Below, piece by piece: positions 1 through 54,750 of a stretch of 54,750 bases of DNA. The translations under genes and the position numbers were made by a program. How positions within the stretch are numbered: position 1 is the stretch's first letter; every line of letters begins with the position of its first letter. Origin of the DNA: Paludibacter propionicigenes (GTDB lineage Bacteria > Bacteroidota > Bacteroidia > Bacteroidales > JAFGXI01); the NCBI GenBank assembly GCA_020721655.1, contig DYMG01000005.1, positions 1-54,750 of the forward strand. The letters are read 5' to 3'. The notes under the pieces are model-generated. The model saw only the letters and a program-made list of their open reading frames with translations. It ran no database searches and was not told the DNA's origin.

Positions 1-192
1 TTTTTGCCTACTCTAAAAGCTTTTCGGCTTTCGCTTTGTTGAATAACTTTTTTTCTTGCAAGTTTTTGTTATTTCAGTTGCAAATCAAAAAAAAAACAGA
101 TATGCAAATATTTTTGTCTAAAATTGCTATTTAAATTGATTATAAATTATGATTAATACATTGTTTCTATTGATTAGACTATTTAATACTGT

Positions 193-33369: not shown

Positions 33370-33658
33370 ATTATTTTTTTTACTAAAATAGAAAATAATA
33401 ATTCAAATAAATAACTGATTTTATACAACATATTACCACAAATACATAAAATCTTGATAATAAGCATTTTTAATATTTAAACTTTTCGAAAAATTATTTA
33501 TTGTTACTTCTACATAACAGCATTAAAAAACAACGTATTACACTATTAATAAATATTTTAGATAACTCACACACCTCTACTTACAACTTATTTTCAAAAA
33601 ATGCTTTACTTTCATTAAAAATTGTTGTATATTGTCGAATATTTTAAATACAAATTTT

Positions 33659-34402
33659 ATGATAAAAAACATACTCCCAATTATAATTTTATTCTTAGCT
33701 TTTTCTTCTAAAGCCCAAGATTTTCAAATTTCAACAGCTGGAGTTTCCAATTTAAATGGACAAAGTTTAGACTTTGCTATTCATGCAGATAGCATTAATG
33801 GTTCTGGCAATTATTTTTATAATTTAGTAGTTGAAATTCATAATACGTCTAGTGTTGAAAAGTTTATTCAAGTTAGAAGAACTAATATTGAGCAAAGCGG
33901 TTATTCTTTCCCTGCAGGACACACAATGTGTTTAGGAACAACTTGTTATTCGGGAGATATTATTCCAAGTGCTTCGAGTGGTAAAACAATAAATGCCAAC
34001 GAAACAATTGAGTTACATGTTCAAATTGAATTTGAACCAACTGGTTACGGACGAGAACATTACGATATTTTTGAGAAAGACAACACACAAAACTCTGTTT
34101 CTTTTGATGCTTACTATCACAGTATAACATCTAACATTAAAAATTTAACATCTGCAAACATTGTAAGCAAAGCTTATCCAAATCCTGCTAATAATTTAGT
34201 GAAATTAAATTACAATATTTTAGACAATGGTTTTATTACAATTCACGATATTACTGGAAAACAAATTGGAAAAGCTATTTTATCAAAAACTCAAAACAGT
34301 ATTTCGCTAAGCACAGATAAGGTTAATTCTGGTATGTATTTCTACAACATTTATGTTAATAATATAAAAATTAAGACTGATAAATTTGTTGTAAGACATT
34401 AA
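33659..34402 (+). CDS. Small T9SS type A CTD protein with a CxxxxC motif
   Basis: Signal peptide from ATG 33659 (MIKNILP...SKA-Q); MCLGTTCY; AYPNPA...DITGKQI...GMYFY...KFVVRH. Confidence 0.85.
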   Translation: MIKNILPIIILFLAFSSKAQDFQISTAGVSNLNGQSLDFAIHADSINGSGNYFYNLVVEIHNTSSVEKFIQVRRTNIEQSGYSFPAGHTMCLGTTCYSGDIIPSASSGKTINANETIELHVQIEFEPTGYGREHYDIFEKDNTQNSVSFDAYYHSITSNIKNLTSANIVSKAYPNPANNLVKLNYNILDNGFITIHDITGKQIGKAILSKTQNSISLSTDKVNSGMYFYNIYVNNIKIKTDKFVVRH

Positions 34403-35622: not shown

Positions 35623-36267
35623 CTATTCTATTGTCCTACTACCATCTGTTTGGTATGAATATTTAAAATTTACATAACCCGAATTTCCGTTATCGTTAAA
35701 AAAACTTTTAATCCAAATTTTTGCGTATTTTCCATTTGCTGTTTTTAGCACATAAATATGGTCATTTGTTGGGTAAGTAGGACCCTGAGACCCCATAACA
35801 ACATCTACACAACCAATAAAAACAGAGCTGCCGGGAACTGCCAAATAAATTGGCGAATGGTCTGTATTAAAACCTGTTACAATTTGAATTGTATCGTCTG
35901 GGGTATATCCACCTTCGTTTGCTGTAACAACTGTAGACCACTCAACACTACCAGCATCGTAAACGCCTCCTTCGCCAATACCTGCACTTCCAGAATTTGT
36001 TCTAACATTATAGCGATTAAATGCTATATCCCAACTTGTTGATGTAGTATAATTTAAAGAATCTACACCCGAAACCTCGGCACCTGTTGCAAAAGAAAAA
36101 TAAATCCAATCATCGCCGTAATCTGTTGTACGACTAAGCGTGTATTCTGCTGTTTTTAATGTTGTTGAAGTATTTATATCATCAACAACTTCTTCATCTT
36201 TTTTACAAGATGAAATTAATGCAATTCCTGCTAAAAATAGCACTAAAAAATAATTTACTGTTTTCAT
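35623..36267 (-). CDS. hmuY: HmuY-family heme-binding lipoprotein
   Basis: Lipobox LISS-C; [41 protein letters not shown]. Confidence 0.9.
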
Positions 36268-38537
36268 TTTACTAATTTTTGTTTGTTATTAAAAAAGTTA
36301 TCAATATTAATTTGCAGACTCACAAATACCCGTCTGCCAGGGTTTATGCTTGTATTAAAATTCACTAAATCAGGTTTGTAATCAAAAATATTATTTACTC
36401 CAAAAATTAAATTTGTTGAGTTATATATTTTCTGTGAAAAACTTAAATTCCATATAGAAAATGCGTTATAATGCACATTGTATATAGCTTTTACATTCTC
36501 GCCTCTGTATAAAATATCAGCGAAATCTTGATAATTTTTTGCTCCTGTTATTTTCCCATTTATTGATATTAGTGATGTATAAAAACTTTTTGAAAAATTA
36601 TATTCAATTTTTACAGTTGCCGAATGAGGGCTAATTGTTGATATTTGGCTTTCTGCACTTCTATTATCTACAACAAAACTGTAACCTCCACCAAAATTAA
36701 AGTGTTTTAGAAATTTATACTTCAACAAAACTTCTACACCTGAAAGCTCTGCATTATAAATGTTAACATATTTATAAACTGTTTGGTTTTCTTGCCATTC
36801 TCCATCAATTTTATTTATAATCCAATTTTTATAAAATGTTGTAGCAACATTAAAATTATTTTGGGTGTATTCGTAAGATAGAGATATATAATTGTTAGTT
36901 TCTGGCTTTAAATTTACATCTCCTTTAATTGTAAACATTCCAAGCATATCCCAATTCATATAAAGTTCCTTTAAAGTTGGAGATCTAAAACCTTTTGCGT
37001 AATTAAATCTTAAAACATTAGATTTTATCCTATACATAGCCGATAATTTTGGCGATGGATACAAACCAAAAGTTGAGTGAACATCGGCTCTTACTCCAAT
37101 TACAAAATTTATTTTTTCGTTTAAAACAATATCGTCTTGAAAATAAAATACATAATTATTTATACTTTGATTTGTTAATGTATCTTTAATGTACTTGTCT
37201 GACAATAAGCCTTCTGCAAAATATTCGGAGCCTATAATTATTGAATGTCTATTAAAAATTTCTAAATCTGCAACTATCTTAGGATTTACATAAACATTTT
37301 TATAATTAATCTTTTTTTCAAATAGCTTTTCTAAATAATCGTATTTATTATACTCATCTCTATTAAAAAATGCCTTTAAATTAAATTTATCATTAAACTT
37401 ATATACTATATTTCCTCCATAAGTTATATCTTCATAATTTTGATATTTGTTGTCTATATTAAAATCGTATTGATTATGATTATAGTACGAGCCATATAAA
37501 TTAACATTAAAATTACTTTTCAGATTATATGATAGAGTTTGACTTATTGTATAATCCTGAAAACCATCAACATTTGTTTGTTCTTTTGGATAAACTATAG
37601 TTGTGTCAATATTTATTGCCTTATAAGACTGAGAATACAAATCAATTAATTTATACCCATCAAAACTTTTTCTCGAAAAATTTGTTCTACTACTTACATT
37701 GTAAAAATTTAAACCTATTGTTGCACTGTTTTCTATATTTGGCATATCTACATAAAGCTTATATTTGTAATTATCATCAGTAATTTTAACATTTTTATAA
37801 TTAACTTGATTTCGTTCCGTTAATTTACTCACTATATTGAGTTCTAAATGCTTTTTCGTTTTTTTAGTTATAATATTTATAACTCCACCCATAGCCTGCG
37901 AGCCGTACAATGCCGAAGATGCACCTTTTACAATCTCAATTCTATCAATATCGCTTGTATTAATTCTAGAATAATCGATATTATTTCCATTTTCACCAGC
38001 AAGTTTCTCACCATCAACTAGAATAAGAATATTTTTTGAACTTAAGCCGTGCATATTTATATCTGTACCGTAACCAACTTGTTGAAAATCTAACCCCGGA
38101 AGTTCGTTTTCCAAAACATTTTCCAACTTAGTGTAGCCTTTTGTTTGAATATCATTTGCATTTATAACTTGGGTAATTACTGGTGTATTTTTCAACATTT
38201 TATTGGTTCTTGTTGCTGTAACAACAACTTGTTCCAAATTAAAAACATCTGGAATTAAAAAAATAGTTTTAGACTCCGAAGGCAACAATGTATCTGTAAG
38301 TGTTTTATAACCAATAAGTGAAATTGTAACAAGCATTTTTTCGGAATAACTATTAGTAAACTCTCCGTTTATGCTCGATATTAAATACATTTTTTTATGA
38401 TTTTGCAAACTTCCTAAAATAATATTCGCATAAAAAACAGGCTCTTTAGTATTACTATCGAGTAATTTTATTTTAGTATTTTGCGAAAAAAGAATGTTGT
38501 TTAAAAATAAGATAGTTAACAAATATGTTAATTTCAT
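36264..38537 (-). CDS. TonB-dependent receptor (HmuR-like heme/iron uptake)
   Basis: Signal peptide; N-terminal carboxypeptidase-like domain; VVVTATR TonB box; plug (ILVDG, IDRIEIVKGASSALYGSQAMGGVINIIT); GFRSP..KELY, LKPE, GVNNIFD; overlaps hmuY by 4 nt. Confidence 0.92.
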   Translation of the reverse strand: MKLTYLLTILFLNNILFSQNTKIKLLDSNTKEPVFYANIILGSLQNHKKMYLISSINGEFTNSYSEKMLVTISLIGYKTLTDTLLPSESKTIFLIPDVFNLEQVVVTATRTNKMLKNTPVITQVINANDIQTKGYTKLENVLENELPGLDFQQVGYGTDINMHGLSSKNILILVDGEKLAGENGNNIDYSRINTSDIDRIEIVKGASSALYGSQAMGGVINIITKKTKKHLELNIVSKLTERNQVNYKNVKITDDNYKYKLYVDMPNIENSATIGLNFYNVSSRTNFSRKSFDGYKLIDLYSQSYKAINIDTTIVYPKEQTNVDGFQDYTISQTLSYNLKSNFNVNLYGSYYNHNQYDFNIDNKYQNYEDITYGGNIVYKFNDKFNLKAFFNRDEYNKYDYLEKLFEKKINYKNVYVNPKIVADLEIFNRHSIIIGSEYFAEGLLSDKYIKDTLTNQSINNYVFYFQDDIVLNEKINFVIGVRADVHSTFGLYPSPKLSAMYRIKSNVLRFNYAKGFRSPTLKELYMNWDMLGMFTIKGDVNLKPETNNYISLSYEYTQNNFNVATTFYKNWIINKIDGEWQENQTVYKYVNIYNAELSGVEVLLKYKFLKHFNFGGGYSFVVDNRSAESQISTISPHSATVKIEYNFSKSFYTSLISINGKITGAKNYQDFADILYRGENVKAIYNVHYNAFSIWNLSFSQKIYNSTNLIFGVNNIFDYKPDLVNFNTSINPGRRVFVSLQINIDNFFNNKQKLVK

Positions 38538-38584
38538 CAATAAAAAATTATAATAAATTAAGTTTGATTTTACGTTAACTCTAC

Positions 38585-38635
38585 AATTTTACCTAATAAT
38601 CAGTTAAAATTCAACCTGATTACCAATATAAAATT
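38585..38635 (-). promoter_or_regulatory. Long RNA stem-loop between the RGPP uORF and the TBDR
   Basis: Minus strand AATTTTATATTGGTAATCAGGTTGAATTTTAACTGATTATTAGGTAAAATT; perfect TAATCAG/CTGATTA core extended by G-U pairs and AATTTTA/TAAAATT. Confidence 0.55.
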
Positions 38636-38661
38636 TAATAAAATTGCATAATTTAAAGAAA

Positions 38662-38997
38662 CTAAACCAAAGTTGGGGGACCTCTTAATTTATAAATATT
38701 TTTATTTGCCAAAACAATTTGCTCTACACAAATCGTCTTGTAACTTACTATTAATGGGGTTAATAAATTTAATTTTAGACTGTTTGGAAAAATAAAATCA
38801 AAGTCTTGACTTAAACTTTTATTTAAAATCTTAGATTTTTTTTCTAACTTATTAGATTTAGTGTAAAAAACATTATGAGAATATAAATCTTTCTTATAAA
38901 TTACTTTTAAGTGCATATTAACCAAATCTCCAACAACTACCCAAGCAAATGAGGTAATCATTGAAATAAAAATAATTTTGTTTAATATACTTCTCAT
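38662..38997 (-). CDS. Putative membrane-anchored leader (arrest) peptide ending in LRGPP
   Basis: 111 aa from ATG 38997; N-terminal hydrophobic helix; C-terminal KLRGPPTLV-stop; directly upstream of and co-oriented with the TBDR. Confidence 0.7.
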   Translation of the reverse strand: MRSILNKIIFISMITSFAWVVVGDLVNMHLKVIYKKDLYSHNVFYTKSNKLEKKSKILNKSLSQDFDFIFPNSLKLNLLTPLIVSYKTICVEQIVLANKNIYKLRGPPTLV

Positions 38998-39005
38998 ATC
39001 CAATG

Positions 39006-39013
39006 CAAAATTA
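39006..39013 (-). promoter_or_regulatory. -7 promoter element for the uORF-TBDR-hmuY unit
   Basis: TAATTTTG on the minus strand (TAnnTTTG), ending 8 nt before ATG 38997. Confidence 0.6.
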
Positions 39014-39211
39014 CACTAAAAAATGTACTTACTAAAAAAAAATACTGTTAAATAACACAAAGCAATATAATTTAACCAAGCATCTGATTAATAAATATTT
39101 AATCGTCTTAGTTTTGTATTTTGCATTGTGAAATATTTTAATTTTAAATATTATTTTTCATAAAAATTGCAAAACGCAATGCAATTATTTGTATTTCATA
39201 TAAAAGGAAGT

Positions 39212-39219
39212 TAAATTTG
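39212..39219 (+). promoter_or_regulatory. -7 promoter element upstream of the zapB-like gene
   Basis: TAAATTTG matches TAnnTTTG. Confidence 0.45.
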
Positions 39220-39279
39220 TAAATTGAATATATTTTATTTGTTGCAAATATTTTTATTCATAAGTTGTAAAATTATAAT

Positions 39280-39576
39280 ATGAGTGAAACTTATAAAGAA
39301 ATAATTAACGAAATCAACAAAAAAGTTGATACCATTATTTCAAAATATGATAACTTAAATACAGATTTTATAACATTAAAAAAAGAAAATGAAAGTTTAC
39401 TTGAAAAAATTAATTTAGAAAAAGAAAACAACAAAATTTTGGAAAGTAAATTTGAACAATTAAAAGTTGCCAAAGTATTAGAAAAATCTGATGAAGATAT
39501 TAAAAATACTAAAAGCAAAATAAATAAACTAGTGAAAGAAATTGATAGGTGCATAGCTCTTTTAAATGTTGATTAA
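39280..39576 (+). CDS. ZapB-like coiled-coil protein
   Basis: 98 aa heptad-rich protein ending KINKLVKEIDRCIALLN; conserved position before zapA in Bacteroidota. Confidence 0.75.
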   Translation: MSETYKEIINEINKKVDTIISKYDNLNTDFITLKKENESLLEKINLEKENNKILESKFEQLKVAKVLEKSDEDIKNTKSKINKLVKEIDRCIALLNVD

Positions 39577-53262: not shown

Positions 53263-53335
53263 CACGGGTGGAGAGACTCGAACTCCCAACCTACGGTTTT
53301 GGAGACCGCCACTCTACCAATTGAGCCACACCCGT
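53263..53335 (-). tRNA. tRNA-Trp (CCA)
   Basis: Cloverleaf with ACGGGTG/CACCCGT acceptor stem, anticodon loop CTCCAAA and GTTCGAG T-loop; CCA end not encoded. Confidence 0.97.
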
Positions 53336-54607: not shown

Positions 54608-54679
<72 letters not shown>

Positions 54680-54696: not shown

Positions 54697-54750
54697 AGCG
54701 GGCAACGAGACTCGAACTCGCGACGTTCAGCTTGGAAGGCTGAAGCTCTA
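54697..54750 (-). tRNA. tRNA-Gly (TCC), 5' end truncated by the window edge
   Basis: TCAGC-CTTCCAA-GCTGA anticodon arm, GTTCGAG T-loop, 3' TGCCCGC-T. Confidence 0.92.

What the first reader, a model, noticed from the sequence alone, without database searches (positions are those of the whole stretch)
38662..39013. Candidate RGPP ribosome-arrest leader peptide controlling a HmuR/HmuY heme-uptake operon
Seen: a 111 aa ORF with an N-terminal signal-anchor helix, a His/Met segment just after it (GDLVNMHLKVIY...YSHN), a low-complexity spacer of about 60 aa and LRGPP three codons before the stop. It is the first gene after a TAnnTTTG promoter only 8 nt from its ATG (near-leaderless) and precedes a hairpin, the TBDR and hmuY. 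Established: RAPP/RGPP/RAGP motifs are translation-arrest motifs (ApdA, ApdP, SecM), and Bordetella CruR (DUF2946; CxxC plus RAPP) is a uORF that regulates a copper TBDR post-transcriptionally. Inference: an analogous, apparently undescribed Bacteroidota system in which the nascent peptide is threaded into Sec, senses periplasmic heme/metal or pulling force, and stalling at RGPP sets expression of heme import. No convincing Fur box was seen upstream, which fits post-transcriptional control.
Basis: partly seen in the sequence, partly recalled or inferred. Interest (0 to 1): 0.85.

Follow-up and report, generated by a model that had tools for sequence, protein, structure and literature searches.

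The report
RGPP arrest-type leader of heme-uptake operon
A small membrane-anchored open reading frame ending in the known ribosome-stalling motif RGPP heads a heme-receptor operon, and its relatives in other Bacteroidales keep that motif, so it most likely controls heme uptake through programmed ribosome stalling.

Summary
A 111-aa ORF lies on the minus strand (38662-38997). It has an N-terminal membrane helix and RGPP three codons before the stop. A TonB-dependent receptor and HmuY follow it.

Comparative data favour an arrest peptide:
- 64 of 65 small homologues end in R-[G/A/S/D]-P-P, 1-9 residues from the C-terminus. The exception is a truncated 63-aa entry.
- In an alignment of 74 sequences only H29, R105, P107 and P108 are invariant.
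- The His-to-Arg spacing stays at 73-85 residues (median 81), although the sequence between is unconserved and predicted disordered.
- In 21 of 21 loci the ORF sits directly upstream of a TonB-dependent receptor. 18 of 21 also carry HmuY-family genes.
- No RGPP, RAPP, RSPP or RDPP occurs in the other long ORFs of this genome.

The family matches no Pfam model, DUF2946 (CruR) included. The general class, RAPP/RGPP small ORFs upstream of TonB-dependent receptors, was published in 2025. This is therefore a new, probably heme-linked, variant of a known kind.

Stalling, the ligand and the output step are all untested. The output could be Rho-type attenuation or something else. The hairpin after the ORF is only modestly better than chance and is not conserved.

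The parts
39006..39013 (-). TAATTTTG, a match to the Bacteroidota -7 promoter consensus TAnnTTTG, 8 nt upstream of the leader ATG. This implies a very short or absent 5' UTR.
   Evidence: motif at chance frequency within the window; the same motif lies 4-36 nt upstream of the leader ATG in 12 of 21 loci, with the same 8-nt gap in the congener L022. That TAnnTTTG is the -7 element is recalled knowledge.
38662..38997 (-). Leader ORF: 111 codons plus the TAG stop.
   Evidence: Homologues.
38911..38976 (-). Residues 8-29: hydrophobic membrane helix ending in G23-D24-L25-V-x-x-H29. H29 is invariant; F17, G23, D24 and L25 are at least 90% conserved.
   Evidence: Flanking charges favour N-in/C-out: K+R within 15 residues averages 3.4 on the N side and 1.3 on the C side, and N exceeds C in 44 of 52 sequences.
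38833..38910 (-). Residues 30-55: moderately conserved, Lys-rich segment after the helix. Consensus is ..VIY..D....(H)QPF.K..K, with K50 at least 90% conserved.
38686..38832 (-). Residues 56-104: spacer that is unconserved in sequence but constrained in length.
   Evidence: Information content is 0.4-1.3 bits per column over residues 71-100. pLDDT is below 50 at 51-70. His-to-Arg spacing is 73-85, median 81, sd 2.2 in 86 distinct leaders.
38674..38685 (-). AGA GGT CCC CCA = R105-G-P-P108, the candidate arrest motif.
   Evidence: R, P and P are invariant in 74 sequences. Position 2 is G 35, A 24, S 4, D 1 in 64 proteins. Arg and Pro codons vary synonymously among loci.
38662..38673 (-). Tail T-L-V plus stop. 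A ribosome held with the two Pro codons in its P and A sites would cover it.
   Evidence: The tail is 2-3 residues in 56 of 64 proteins. The ribosome footprint is established knowledge.
38538..38661 (-). 124-nt T-rich intergenic spacer holding an imperfect hairpin (about 38570-38651; core arms 38585-38597 and 38599-38611).
   Evidence: z -2.14. No Rfam match at E up to 1. No terminator.
36264..38537 (-). TonB-dependent receptor. Its closest NCBIfam subfamilies are the heme/hemoglobin receptors, both below their cut-offs.
35623..36267 (-). HmuY-family lipoprotein.
   Evidence: PF14064, 6.6e-27.

Best explanation
The ORF is a cis-acting regulatory leader of the RAPP/RGPP arrest-peptide type. It heads the transcription unit leader - TonB-dependent receptor - HmuY.

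Shown by comparison: the peptide has an N-terminal membrane helix with an invariant His at its end, a spacer of fixed length and free sequence, and an invariant R-x-P-P two or three codons before the stop.

Inferred, step by step:
1. The ribosome stalls with Pro107 and Pro108 in its P and A sites, as shown for ApdA, ApdP and CruR. At that moment about 80 residues separate the His from the peptidyl-transferase centre. The helix is then already in the membrane, and the conserved 30-55 segment is outside the ribosome.
2. The stalled ribosome keeps the operon on. By analogy with CruR, it would do so by shielding the pyrimidine-rich RNA after the stop from Rho or from another termination route.
3. 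A signal read by the His-bearing segment pulls on or folds the nascent chain and releases the stall. Heme or a porphyrin is the most likely signal, given the invariably linked HmuY/receptor genes. The ribosome then terminates and the downstream genes are attenuated. Uptake would so be shut off when heme is sufficient.
For: 1. R-x-P-P is present 1-9 residues from the C-terminus in 64 of 65 small homologues: RGPP 35, RAPP 24, RSPP 4, RDPP 1. The exception is a truncated 63-aa entry. These are the variants that PMC12992588 reports as robust (RAPP, RGPP) or partially permissive (RSPP, RDPP) for arrest.

2. Only H29, R105, P107 and P108 are invariant in 74 aligned sequences. Arg and Pro codons differ synonymously among loci, so selection acts on the peptide.

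3. The His-to-Arg distance is 73-85 (median 81) in 64 unfiltered proteins and in 86 distinct leaders. The stretch between them is unconserved and has low pLDDT. CruR shows the same kind of fixed spacing, and there it matters for regulation.

4. Synteny: in 21 of 21 loci from different species-level genomes, the leader lies directly upstream, on the same strand, of a TonB-dependent receptor or of an HmuY-like gene followed by one. 18 of 21 have HmuY-family genes. Two of the other three are cut by contig ends, and the third carries a radical-SAM gene (by eye, HemN-like) downstream. All 14 leader-positive genomes of the order sample are among the 88 of 301 with HmuY. Six of 16 further HmuY loci have a similar RxPP-ended small ORF.

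5. In this genome RGPP, RAPP, RSPP and RDPP occur 0 times in 1711 ORFs of 150 aa or more. This is the only 50-250-aa ATG-ORF with such a motif at its C-terminus.

6. The intergenic spacers are long, from 51 to about 300 nt. The first 40 nt after the stop are pyrimidine-rich (0.61 against 0.48 in 150 control gene ends, Mann-Whitney p 3e-6). C exceeds G in 16 of 21 leaders against 60 of 150 controls.

7. No riboswitch or other Rfam family lies in 38400-39300.

8. rho is present in 4 of 4 close relatives.
Against: No experiment or expression data bears on stalling or regulation, and no RNA run was listed.

Residues just upstream of RxPP, which contribute to arrest in ApdA and ApdP, are not conserved here.

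In this window the post-stop RNA is T-rich rather than C-rich (C 0.05, G 0.07), a poor Rho site by the usual criteria. rho was not found in this 92%-complete genome.

No conserved pairing links the arrest codons to the start region of the next gene: 0 of 18 loci reach p < 0.05 and the median z is -0.1. Only 2 of 9 short spacers fold with z below -2.

The ligand is inferred from gene neighbourhood alone. A single invariant His is thin evidence for heme binding.

The controls are crude (all stop-to-stop ORFs of 200 aa or more), and the loci are related to each other, so that p-value overstates.
Confidence: 0.7

Rival explanations
1. The ORF encodes a stable small inner-membrane protein that works in trans in heme uptake, for example as a heme-binding or receptor-associated accessory. 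The C-terminal RxPP would serve a protein-level role such as recognition, processing or turnover, and would not regulate.
For: The helix with G-D-L...H is the best-conserved part, and AlphaFold2 models it with high confidence. Co-occurrence with HmuY and the receptor would equally fit a structural partner.
Against: About half of the protein is unconserved in sequence yet fixed in length, with low pLDDT. The allowed residues at motif position 2 are those compatible with arrest. A motif that stalls ribosomes robustly is otherwise absent from this genome's long ORFs. The ORF is always first in the cluster and is followed by a long spacer.
Confidence: 0.13
2. It is an arrest leader, but what it monitors is protein export or envelope status rather than heme. 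The pulling force would come from Sec/YidC insertion. Synthesis of outer-membrane heme-uptake proteins would then be tuned to export capacity, as with SecM, VemP and ApdA/ApdP.
For: An N-in/C-out signal-anchor is predicted. All characterised Sec/YidC monitors are released by translocation force (PMC12992588 discussion). The products downstream are all exported proteins.
Against: No Sec or YidC gene lies downstream in any of the 21 loci. An invariant His and a strictly kept spacing point to a specific sensing geometry. In CruR the signal peptide was dispensable for regulation.
Confidence: 0.1
3. It is an arrest leader whose output is not Rho-type attenuation. The output could be translational, by exposing the start region of the next gene in a phylum that initiates without Shine-Dalgarno pairing. 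Or it could be a hairpin attenuator that the stalled ribosome masks.
For: In L032 a -19 kcal/mol hairpin followed by a T-run uses the R-A-P-P-A codons as its 5' arm, and L031 has a weaker one. In the window, the last ten leader codons can pair with the stretch roughly 20-40 nt upstream of the receptor ATG (placed by eye on the fold; duplex -9.9 kcal/mol).
Against: The window duplex is not better than shuffles (p 0.12), and none of the 18 loci tested is significant. Of the 21 loci scanned, hairpin-plus-T-run candidates turned up in 4, and only 2 of them (L031, L032) overlap the arrest codons.
Confidence: 0.2
4. It is a chance ORF with a chance RGPP.
For: None beyond the low GC of the region.
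Against: Homologues have E-values down to 2e-21 in relatives, and 33 representatives have E <= 1e-3. The motif and the synteny are conserved.
Confidence: 0.01

Closest known systems
CruR (Bp2923, DUF2946) of Bordetella pertussis: a copper-responsive upstream ORF of the TonB-dependent transporter gene bfrG (Roy et al. 2022, PMC9426467; abstract and sections 9-11 read). Its arrest was shown in vitro in PMC12992588 (passages read).
   Same: A small ORF with an N-terminal export signal, first in an operon with a TonB-dependent receptor. [quoted passage not shown] The spacing between a conserved sensor motif and the arrest motif is kept. A long spacer precedes the receptor gene, and the body of the protein is poorly structured. 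A PepSY_TM gene follows in two relatives (L022, L028), as it often does in CruR operons.
   Different: There is no sequence relationship: 0 of 74 members hit DUF2946 or any Pfam family at E <= 0.01, apart from one UPF0370 hit at 0.004. There is no CXXC; the invariant residue is a His at the end of the membrane helix. The spacing is about 81 residues instead of 45, which places the sensor beyond the ribosome surface. The partner genes are HmuY/heme-type rather than copper-type. The taxon is Bacteroidales, and Roy et al. list no Bacteroidota homologues.
The class of RAPP/RGPP small ORFs upstream of TonB-dependent receptor genes ('TonB-related'), catalogued in PMC12992588 (EMBO J 2025; sections 13-15 read; supplements not available).
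   Same: It fits the operational definition: an ORF under 300 aa with a C-terminal RGPP and a localisation signal, encoded directly upstream of a TonB-dependent receptor gene.
   Different: That paper gives the class only in aggregate. Its main text names no Bacteroidales family, no heme or HmuY link (0 occurrences), no His motif and no spacing rule. I could not check whether members of this family are in its tables.
ApdA, ApdP and the RQH family of Sec/YidC-associated arrest peptides (Sakiyama 2021, PMC7897499, search listing only; Fujiwara 2024, PMC10987492, passages read; Morici 2024, PMC10951233, search listing only).
   Same: A C-terminal RAPP/RGPP core, an N-terminal localisation signal and a position upstream of the regulated gene. 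RQH members from Bacteroidales and Flavobacteriales arrest in vitro, so the motif is competent on sequences from this phylum, at least on B. subtilis ribosomes.
   Different: The downstream genes here are not secA, secDF or yidC. The residues before the motif are unconserved.
SecM of E. coli
   Same: A secreted leader whose stalling controls a downstream gene.
   Different: The SecM motif is RAGP. Its output is unmasking of the secA ribosome-binding site by a defined hairpin, and no conserved equivalent was found here.

Membership tests
RAPP/RGPP-type arrest peptides (functional class) | R-[A/G]-P-P (or a permissive variant) near the C-terminus, conserved among homologues | tested here: met
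   64 of 65 homologues. R, P and P are invariant in 74 sequences.
RAPP/RGPP-type arrest peptides (functional class) | N-terminal signal sequence or membrane segment | tested here: met
   Helix 2-34, with block pLDDT 95-98 for residues 1-30. Hydrophobic profile and charge bias. No dedicated topology predictor was available.
RAPP/RGPP-type arrest peptides (functional class) | Demonstrated elongation arrest with Pro-Pro in the P and A sites | not testable with these tools
   Needs in vitro translation or toeprinting, or ribosome profiling.
RAPP/RGPP-type arrest peptides (functional class) | Encoded directly upstream of, and co-oriented with, the regulated gene | tested here: met
   21 of 21 loci.
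CruR / DUF2946 | Match to the Pfam DUF2946 model | tested here: not met
   0 of 74 members. The window protein has no significant Pfam or NCBIfam hit.
CruR / DUF2946 | Invariant CXXC copper-binding motif | tested here: not met
   No conserved Cys in alignments A2 or A4.
CruR / DUF2946 | Fixed spacing (45 residues +/- 1-2) between sensor motif and RAPP | tested here: not met
   The spacing is fixed, but at about 81 residues from a His. The principle is the same; the value and the motif differ.
CruR / DUF2946 | Rho-dependent termination between the leader and the receptor gene, prevented by stalling | tested here: inconclusive
   Post-stop RNA is pyrimidine-rich with C > G in 16 of 21 loci, but not C-rich in this window. 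rho is present in 4 of 4 relatives but was not found in this 92%-complete genome.
TonB-related RAPP/RGPP uORF class (PMC12992588) | ORF under 300 aa holding RAPP/RGPP, next gene annotated as a TonB-dependent receptor | tested here: met
SecM-type RBS-unmasking leaders | Conserved mRNA helix linking the arrest region to the downstream start region | tested here: not met
   0 of 18 loci significant.

The most novel reading that the evidence does not exclude
This would be a nascent-chain sensor for heme or a porphyrin. While the ribosome is held at RGPP, an 81-residue ruler places the invariant His and the conserved 30-55 segment at the outer face of the inner membrane, after threading through Sec. 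Binding of heme there, or of a heme-loaded partner, would generate the force that releases the stall and shuts off the HmuY/receptor operon. If so, it would be the first arrest peptide that reads a tetrapyrrole, and the first that reads a small ligand outside the cytoplasm co-translationally. It would be a post-transcriptional route for heme homeostasis in Bacteroidales that needs no Fur-type repressor.
Probability: 0.25. Interest if true: 0.85.

Novelty: new variant of a known kind. Interest (0 to 1): 0.62.

Why it matters
Ligand-responsive arrest peptides outside the Sec/YidC field are known from essentially one worked example, CruR with copper. The 2025 survey asks explicitly what generates the releasing force in the many uncharacterised RAPP/RGPP leaders. 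This family offers a second, unrelated case that can be defined compactly: one invariant His, a fixed ruler of about 81 residues, and an invariant RxPP. It is tied to a different nutrient system, HmuY-type heme uptake, in a phylum whose translation initiation and promoters differ from the model organisms. Testing is direct, using H29, spacing and RxPP mutants with or without hemin. If it regulates as proposed, it adds a post-transcriptional layer to heme acquisition in Bacteroidales. That order includes important gut and oral bacteria, although the members found here come from uncultured environmental genomes.

Tried and rejected
- A single-sequence word-indexed search found only the protein itself. 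The exhaustive phmmer search and profile searches were needed.
- The phylum-wide sample outside the order gave 0 of 400 genomes at E <= 1e-4. Only 11 first-look candidates per genome were scored, and one search shows that the profile misses divergent leaders, so this is weak evidence of restriction to the order.
- SecM-like pairing between the arrest codons and the next gene's start region was rejected as a general feature.
- Intrinsic terminators after the leader: none in the window. Candidates turned up in only 4 of the 21 loci scanned, and only L031 and L032 overlap the arrest codons.
- Rfam found nothing in the leader region.
- A Fur box or other operator: inverted repeats upstream (for example 39162-39171/39180-39189) are short and AT-rich.
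- RNA evidence: no RNA holder was listed.
- Complex prediction of two copies of residues 1-60 with heme riding along gave no answer (score 0.02, mark 0.42). This is not evidence either way.
- The listing of cluster members gave no names or accessions for 10 members.
- Supplements of PMC12992588 and PMC9426467 were not available. They may list members of this family.

Full report
WHAT IS THERE. The feature lies on the minus strand. An ATG at 38997 opens a 111-codon frame that ends at TAG 38664-38662. A TTG two codons upstream is possible. The N-termini of the nearest homologues align with the ATG.

The peptide begins MRSILNK and continues with a hydrophobic helix. AlphaFold2, run with a 74-sequence alignment, gives helix 2-34 with block pLDDT 95-98 for residues 1-30. 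The helix ends in G-D-L-V-N-M-H29. A Lys-rich segment follows, then a stretch with pLDDT below 50 (46-49, 51-70), then a weakly predicted helix (79-103). The peptide ends L-R-G-P-P-T-L-V.

124 nt downstream starts a TonB-dependent receptor (Plug 5.9e-25, barrel 5.4e-31). Its best NCBIfam subfamilies are the heme/hemoglobin receptors, both below their cut-offs. HmuY (PF14064, 6.6e-27) overlaps the end of the receptor gene. pyrD follows after a gap. zapA and a coiled-coil gene lie divergently upstream. No Rfam family matches 38400-39300 at E up to 1.

IS IT MORE THAN CHANCE. Yes. Translated searches of related genomes find homologues in 6 of 7 genomes of the same family, with E from 2e-21 to 2.8e-8. 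A profile finds them in 14 of 301 genomes sampled from the order. An exhaustive phmmer search of 1.84 billion representatives gives 33 hits at E <= 1e-3, of which 31 are small proteins and 2 are long, low-complexity matches that I dropped. A profile search of the 5.8-billion collection gives 41. Record titles of 13 loci name uncultured Bacteroidales MAGs, some labelled Rikenellaceae, Prolixibacteraceae or Bacteroidaceae. None of the proteins carries a name or a Pfam domain in the sources.

THE FAMILY SIGNATURE. Of the 65 small proteins retrieved without any motif filter, 64 carry R-x-P-P 1-9 residues from the C-terminus. In 56 of those 64 the tail is 2 or 3 residues. The exception is a 63-aa truncated entry. 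Position 2 is G in 35, A in 24, S in 4 and D in 1.

In a 74-sequence alignment the only invariant columns are H29, R105, P107 and P108. F17, G23, D24, L25 and K50 are at least 90% conserved. Columns 71-100 carry 0.4-1.3 bits each, against 4.3 bits for R, P and P. Arg and Pro codons differ synonymously from locus to locus, so the constraint acts on the peptide and not on the RNA.

The distance from the invariant His to the Arg is 73-85 residues, median 81, in the 64 unfiltered proteins. It is the same in 86 distinct leaders once loci-derived ORFs are added (sd 2.2). Those added ORFs were picked by the two motifs, so they do not test the presence of the motifs, only the spacing.

Flanking charges favour an N-in/C-out helix. 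K+R within 15 residues averages 3.4 on the N side and 1.3 on the C side, and N exceeds C in 44 of 52 sequences that have at least six residues before the predicted helix start.

CONTEXT. In 21 of 21 loci, each from a different species-level genome, the leader is directly upstream of and co-oriented with one of two arrangements:
- receptor then HmuY: 10 complete loci including the window. In two more, the contig ends inside the receptor gene;
- an HmuY-like protein of 410-440 aa with a type IX secretion C-terminal domain, then the receptor, then a second HmuY-family lipoprotein: 8 loci.

The remaining locus has receptor, an MFS transporter, a radical-SAM gene (by eye, HemN-like) and a further gene that by eye looks like an FAD oxidase.

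Pfam on 51 downstream proteins from 20 loci gave HmuY in 19, Plug in 19, the barrel in 18, Por_Secre_tail in 8 and PepSY_TM in 2. All 14 leader-positive genomes of the order sample are among the 88 of 301 with HmuY. I also looked upstream of 16 further HmuY-like loci, most of them in genomes where the profile had found nothing. Six had a small ORF ending in RGPP or RAPP. Four of these carry the G-S-L-[IV]-x-F-H helix end, or a close variant of it (S-S-L-I-N-F-H in L060), and two are more divergent. The family is therefore broader than the profile counts suggest.

THE GENOME AVOIDS THE MOTIF. In the 2.49-Mb, 30%-GC genome, RGPP, RAPP, RSPP and RDPP occur 0 times in 1711 ORFs of 150 aa or more (711,254 residues). 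Composition predicts about 0.9 each for RGPP and RAPP, so the absence alone is not significant. This ORF is the only 50-250-aa ATG-ORF with R[AGSD]PP in its last 13 residues.

WHAT IS KNOWN. RAPP and RGPP are the core of a class of arrest peptides. RGPP gives the most robust arrest in several peptide contexts and resists EF-P. RSPP and RDPP are partially permissive. All are strongly under-represented in proteomes (PMC12992588, abstract and passages).

The same paper reports that small ORFs with C-terminal RAPP/RGPP and a localisation signal are enriched upstream of TonB-dependent receptor genes 'universally' in Gram-negative bacteria. It also shows arrest of CruR in vitro (sections 13-14).

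CruR (Roy 2022, PMC9426467; abstract and sections 9-11) is a DUF2946 protein. [quoted passage not shown] Stalling keeps Rho from terminating before the receptor gene. Copper sensed by CXXC releases the stall. The spacing is conserved and functionally important.

Searches for papers holding both 'HmuY' and 'arrest peptide' found none. In a wider six-term search, none of the 15 papers listed out of 542 holds 'HmuY'. The EMBO J main text holds neither 'heme' nor 'HmuY'. Supplements were closed.

HOW IT MOST LIKELY WORKS. The anatomy repeats that of CruR with different parts. There is a sensor motif, here a His at the end of a membrane helix plus a semi-conserved segment. There is a ruler, an RxPP stall site two or three codons before the stop, and a long spacer before a receptor gene.

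I therefore take it to be a cis-acting arrest leader. What is shown is conservation, spacing, synteny and motif spectrum. What is inferred is the stall itself, its release by a signal read through the His-bearing segment, and the on/off sense.

With about 78 residues between His29 and the P-site Pro, some 35-40 would fill the exit tunnel. The rest is enough to cross a translocon and leave roughly residues 30-55 exposed. That happens to be the conserved segment. This is geometry from general knowledge, not a result.

Heme or a porphyrin is the most economical ligand, given the obligatory HmuY/receptor neighbours.

THE OUTPUT STEP IS OPEN. The evidence splits as follows.
- For a Rho-type mechanism:
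  - the 40 nt after the stop are pyrimidine-rich (0.61 against 0.48 for 150 control gene ends; p 3e-6);
  - C exceeds G in 16 of 21 loci against 60 of 150 controls;
  - rho is present in 4 of 4 relatives.
- Against it in this window:
  - the tract is T-rich with few C;
  - rho was not found in the 92%-complete assembly.
- A SecM-like helix between the arrest codons and the next start region is not supported (0 of 18 loci significant).
- One locus (L032) has a strong hairpin plus T-run whose 5' arm is the R-A-P-P-A codons, a textbook attenuator that a stalled ribosome would mask. L031 has a weaker one. The other loci do not.
- The window's own spacer hairpin has z -2.14 alone and -0.99 in context. 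It has no counterpart in the congener.

PROMOTER. TAATTTTG ends 8 nt before the ATG. The motif is at chance density in the window. From that density (97 matches on two strands of 54,750 nt) I estimate roughly one hit in 21 loci by chance, yet it lies 4-36 nt before the leader ATG in 12 of 21 loci. The gap is 8 nt again in the congener, and 4-19 nt in 10 loci. The leader is thus the first cistron and has a very short 5' UTR. 'Near-leaderless' is plausible, but it rests on recalled spacing between the -7 element and the transcription start.

VERDICT. The family is not a member of DUF2946/CruR but works, as far as sequence can tell, like it. It falls inside a class published in aggregate in December 2025. 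Within that class it is a new variant with its own sensor motif, ruler length, taxon and nutrient link.

Noticed in passing
L020/L042 (G269:C310), last ~270 nt of the contig: A different small ORF, partial at 88 aa, that is His-rich, carries C-x-x-C and ends in LLRAPPQE, lies directly upstream of a TonB-dependent receptor. It has no Pfam hit, DUF2946 included. It may be a second, CruR-like leader family in Bacteroidales.
   Followed up: partly
L050:994-1353 (G014) and L058:511-897 (G204): Divergent small ORFs ending in ALRGPPVQFC and TTRGPPIM lie upstream of HmuY-like genes. L058 lacks the His at the helix end (it reads N-F-Q). No Pfam hit.
   Followed up: partly
L032:6310-6360: A hairpin (about -19 kcal/mol) followed by TTTTTCGCT. 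Its 5' arm is formed by the R-A-P-P-A codons of the leader, so a ribosome stalled at RAPP would mask it. It looks like an attenuator.
   Followed up: partly
L041:7089-14006 (G273:C32): Here the leader precedes a receptor, an MFS transporter, a radical-SAM gene (by eye, HemN-like) and a further gene that by eye looks like an FAD oxidase. This would link the leader to tetrapyrrole metabolism rather than to HmuY. The same genome has a second leader before an HmuY-like gene (L060).
   Followed up: partly
L022 and L028, third gene after the leader: PepSY_TM genes follow HmuY, echoing the receptor plus PepSY_TM pairing of CruR operons.
   Followed up: no
L038, L045, L046, L052 (upstream of the HmuY-like clusters): ORFs of about 170-190 aa whose N-termini look like flavodoxin (judged by eye, not Pfam-tested) sit next to several HmuY clusters. 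That would fit an iron-limitation neighbourhood.
   Followed up: no
window 5-37 (-): Rfam match to DUF805b RNA (RF02914, 44.3 bits, gathering score 35.6).
   Followed up: no
window 53263-53335, 54608-54679, 54697-54750 (-): Three tRNA genes; the last is cut by the window end.
   Followed up: no
G000 whole genome: rho (TIGR00767, PF07497) was not found in this 92%-complete assembly, though it is present over the cut-off in 4 of 4 close relatives.
   Followed up: partly
window 33632-34402 (+): A 256-aa ORF with a type IX secretion C-terminal sorting domain (Por_Secre_tail, 6.6e-10), convergent with pyrD.
   Followed up: no
window 39100-39200: Several TTGCA/TGCAA half-sites and a 10-nt inverted repeat (39162-39171/39180-39189) lie in the divergent promoter region between the leader and the zapA-side genes. 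This could be an operator but was not analysed.
   Followed up: no
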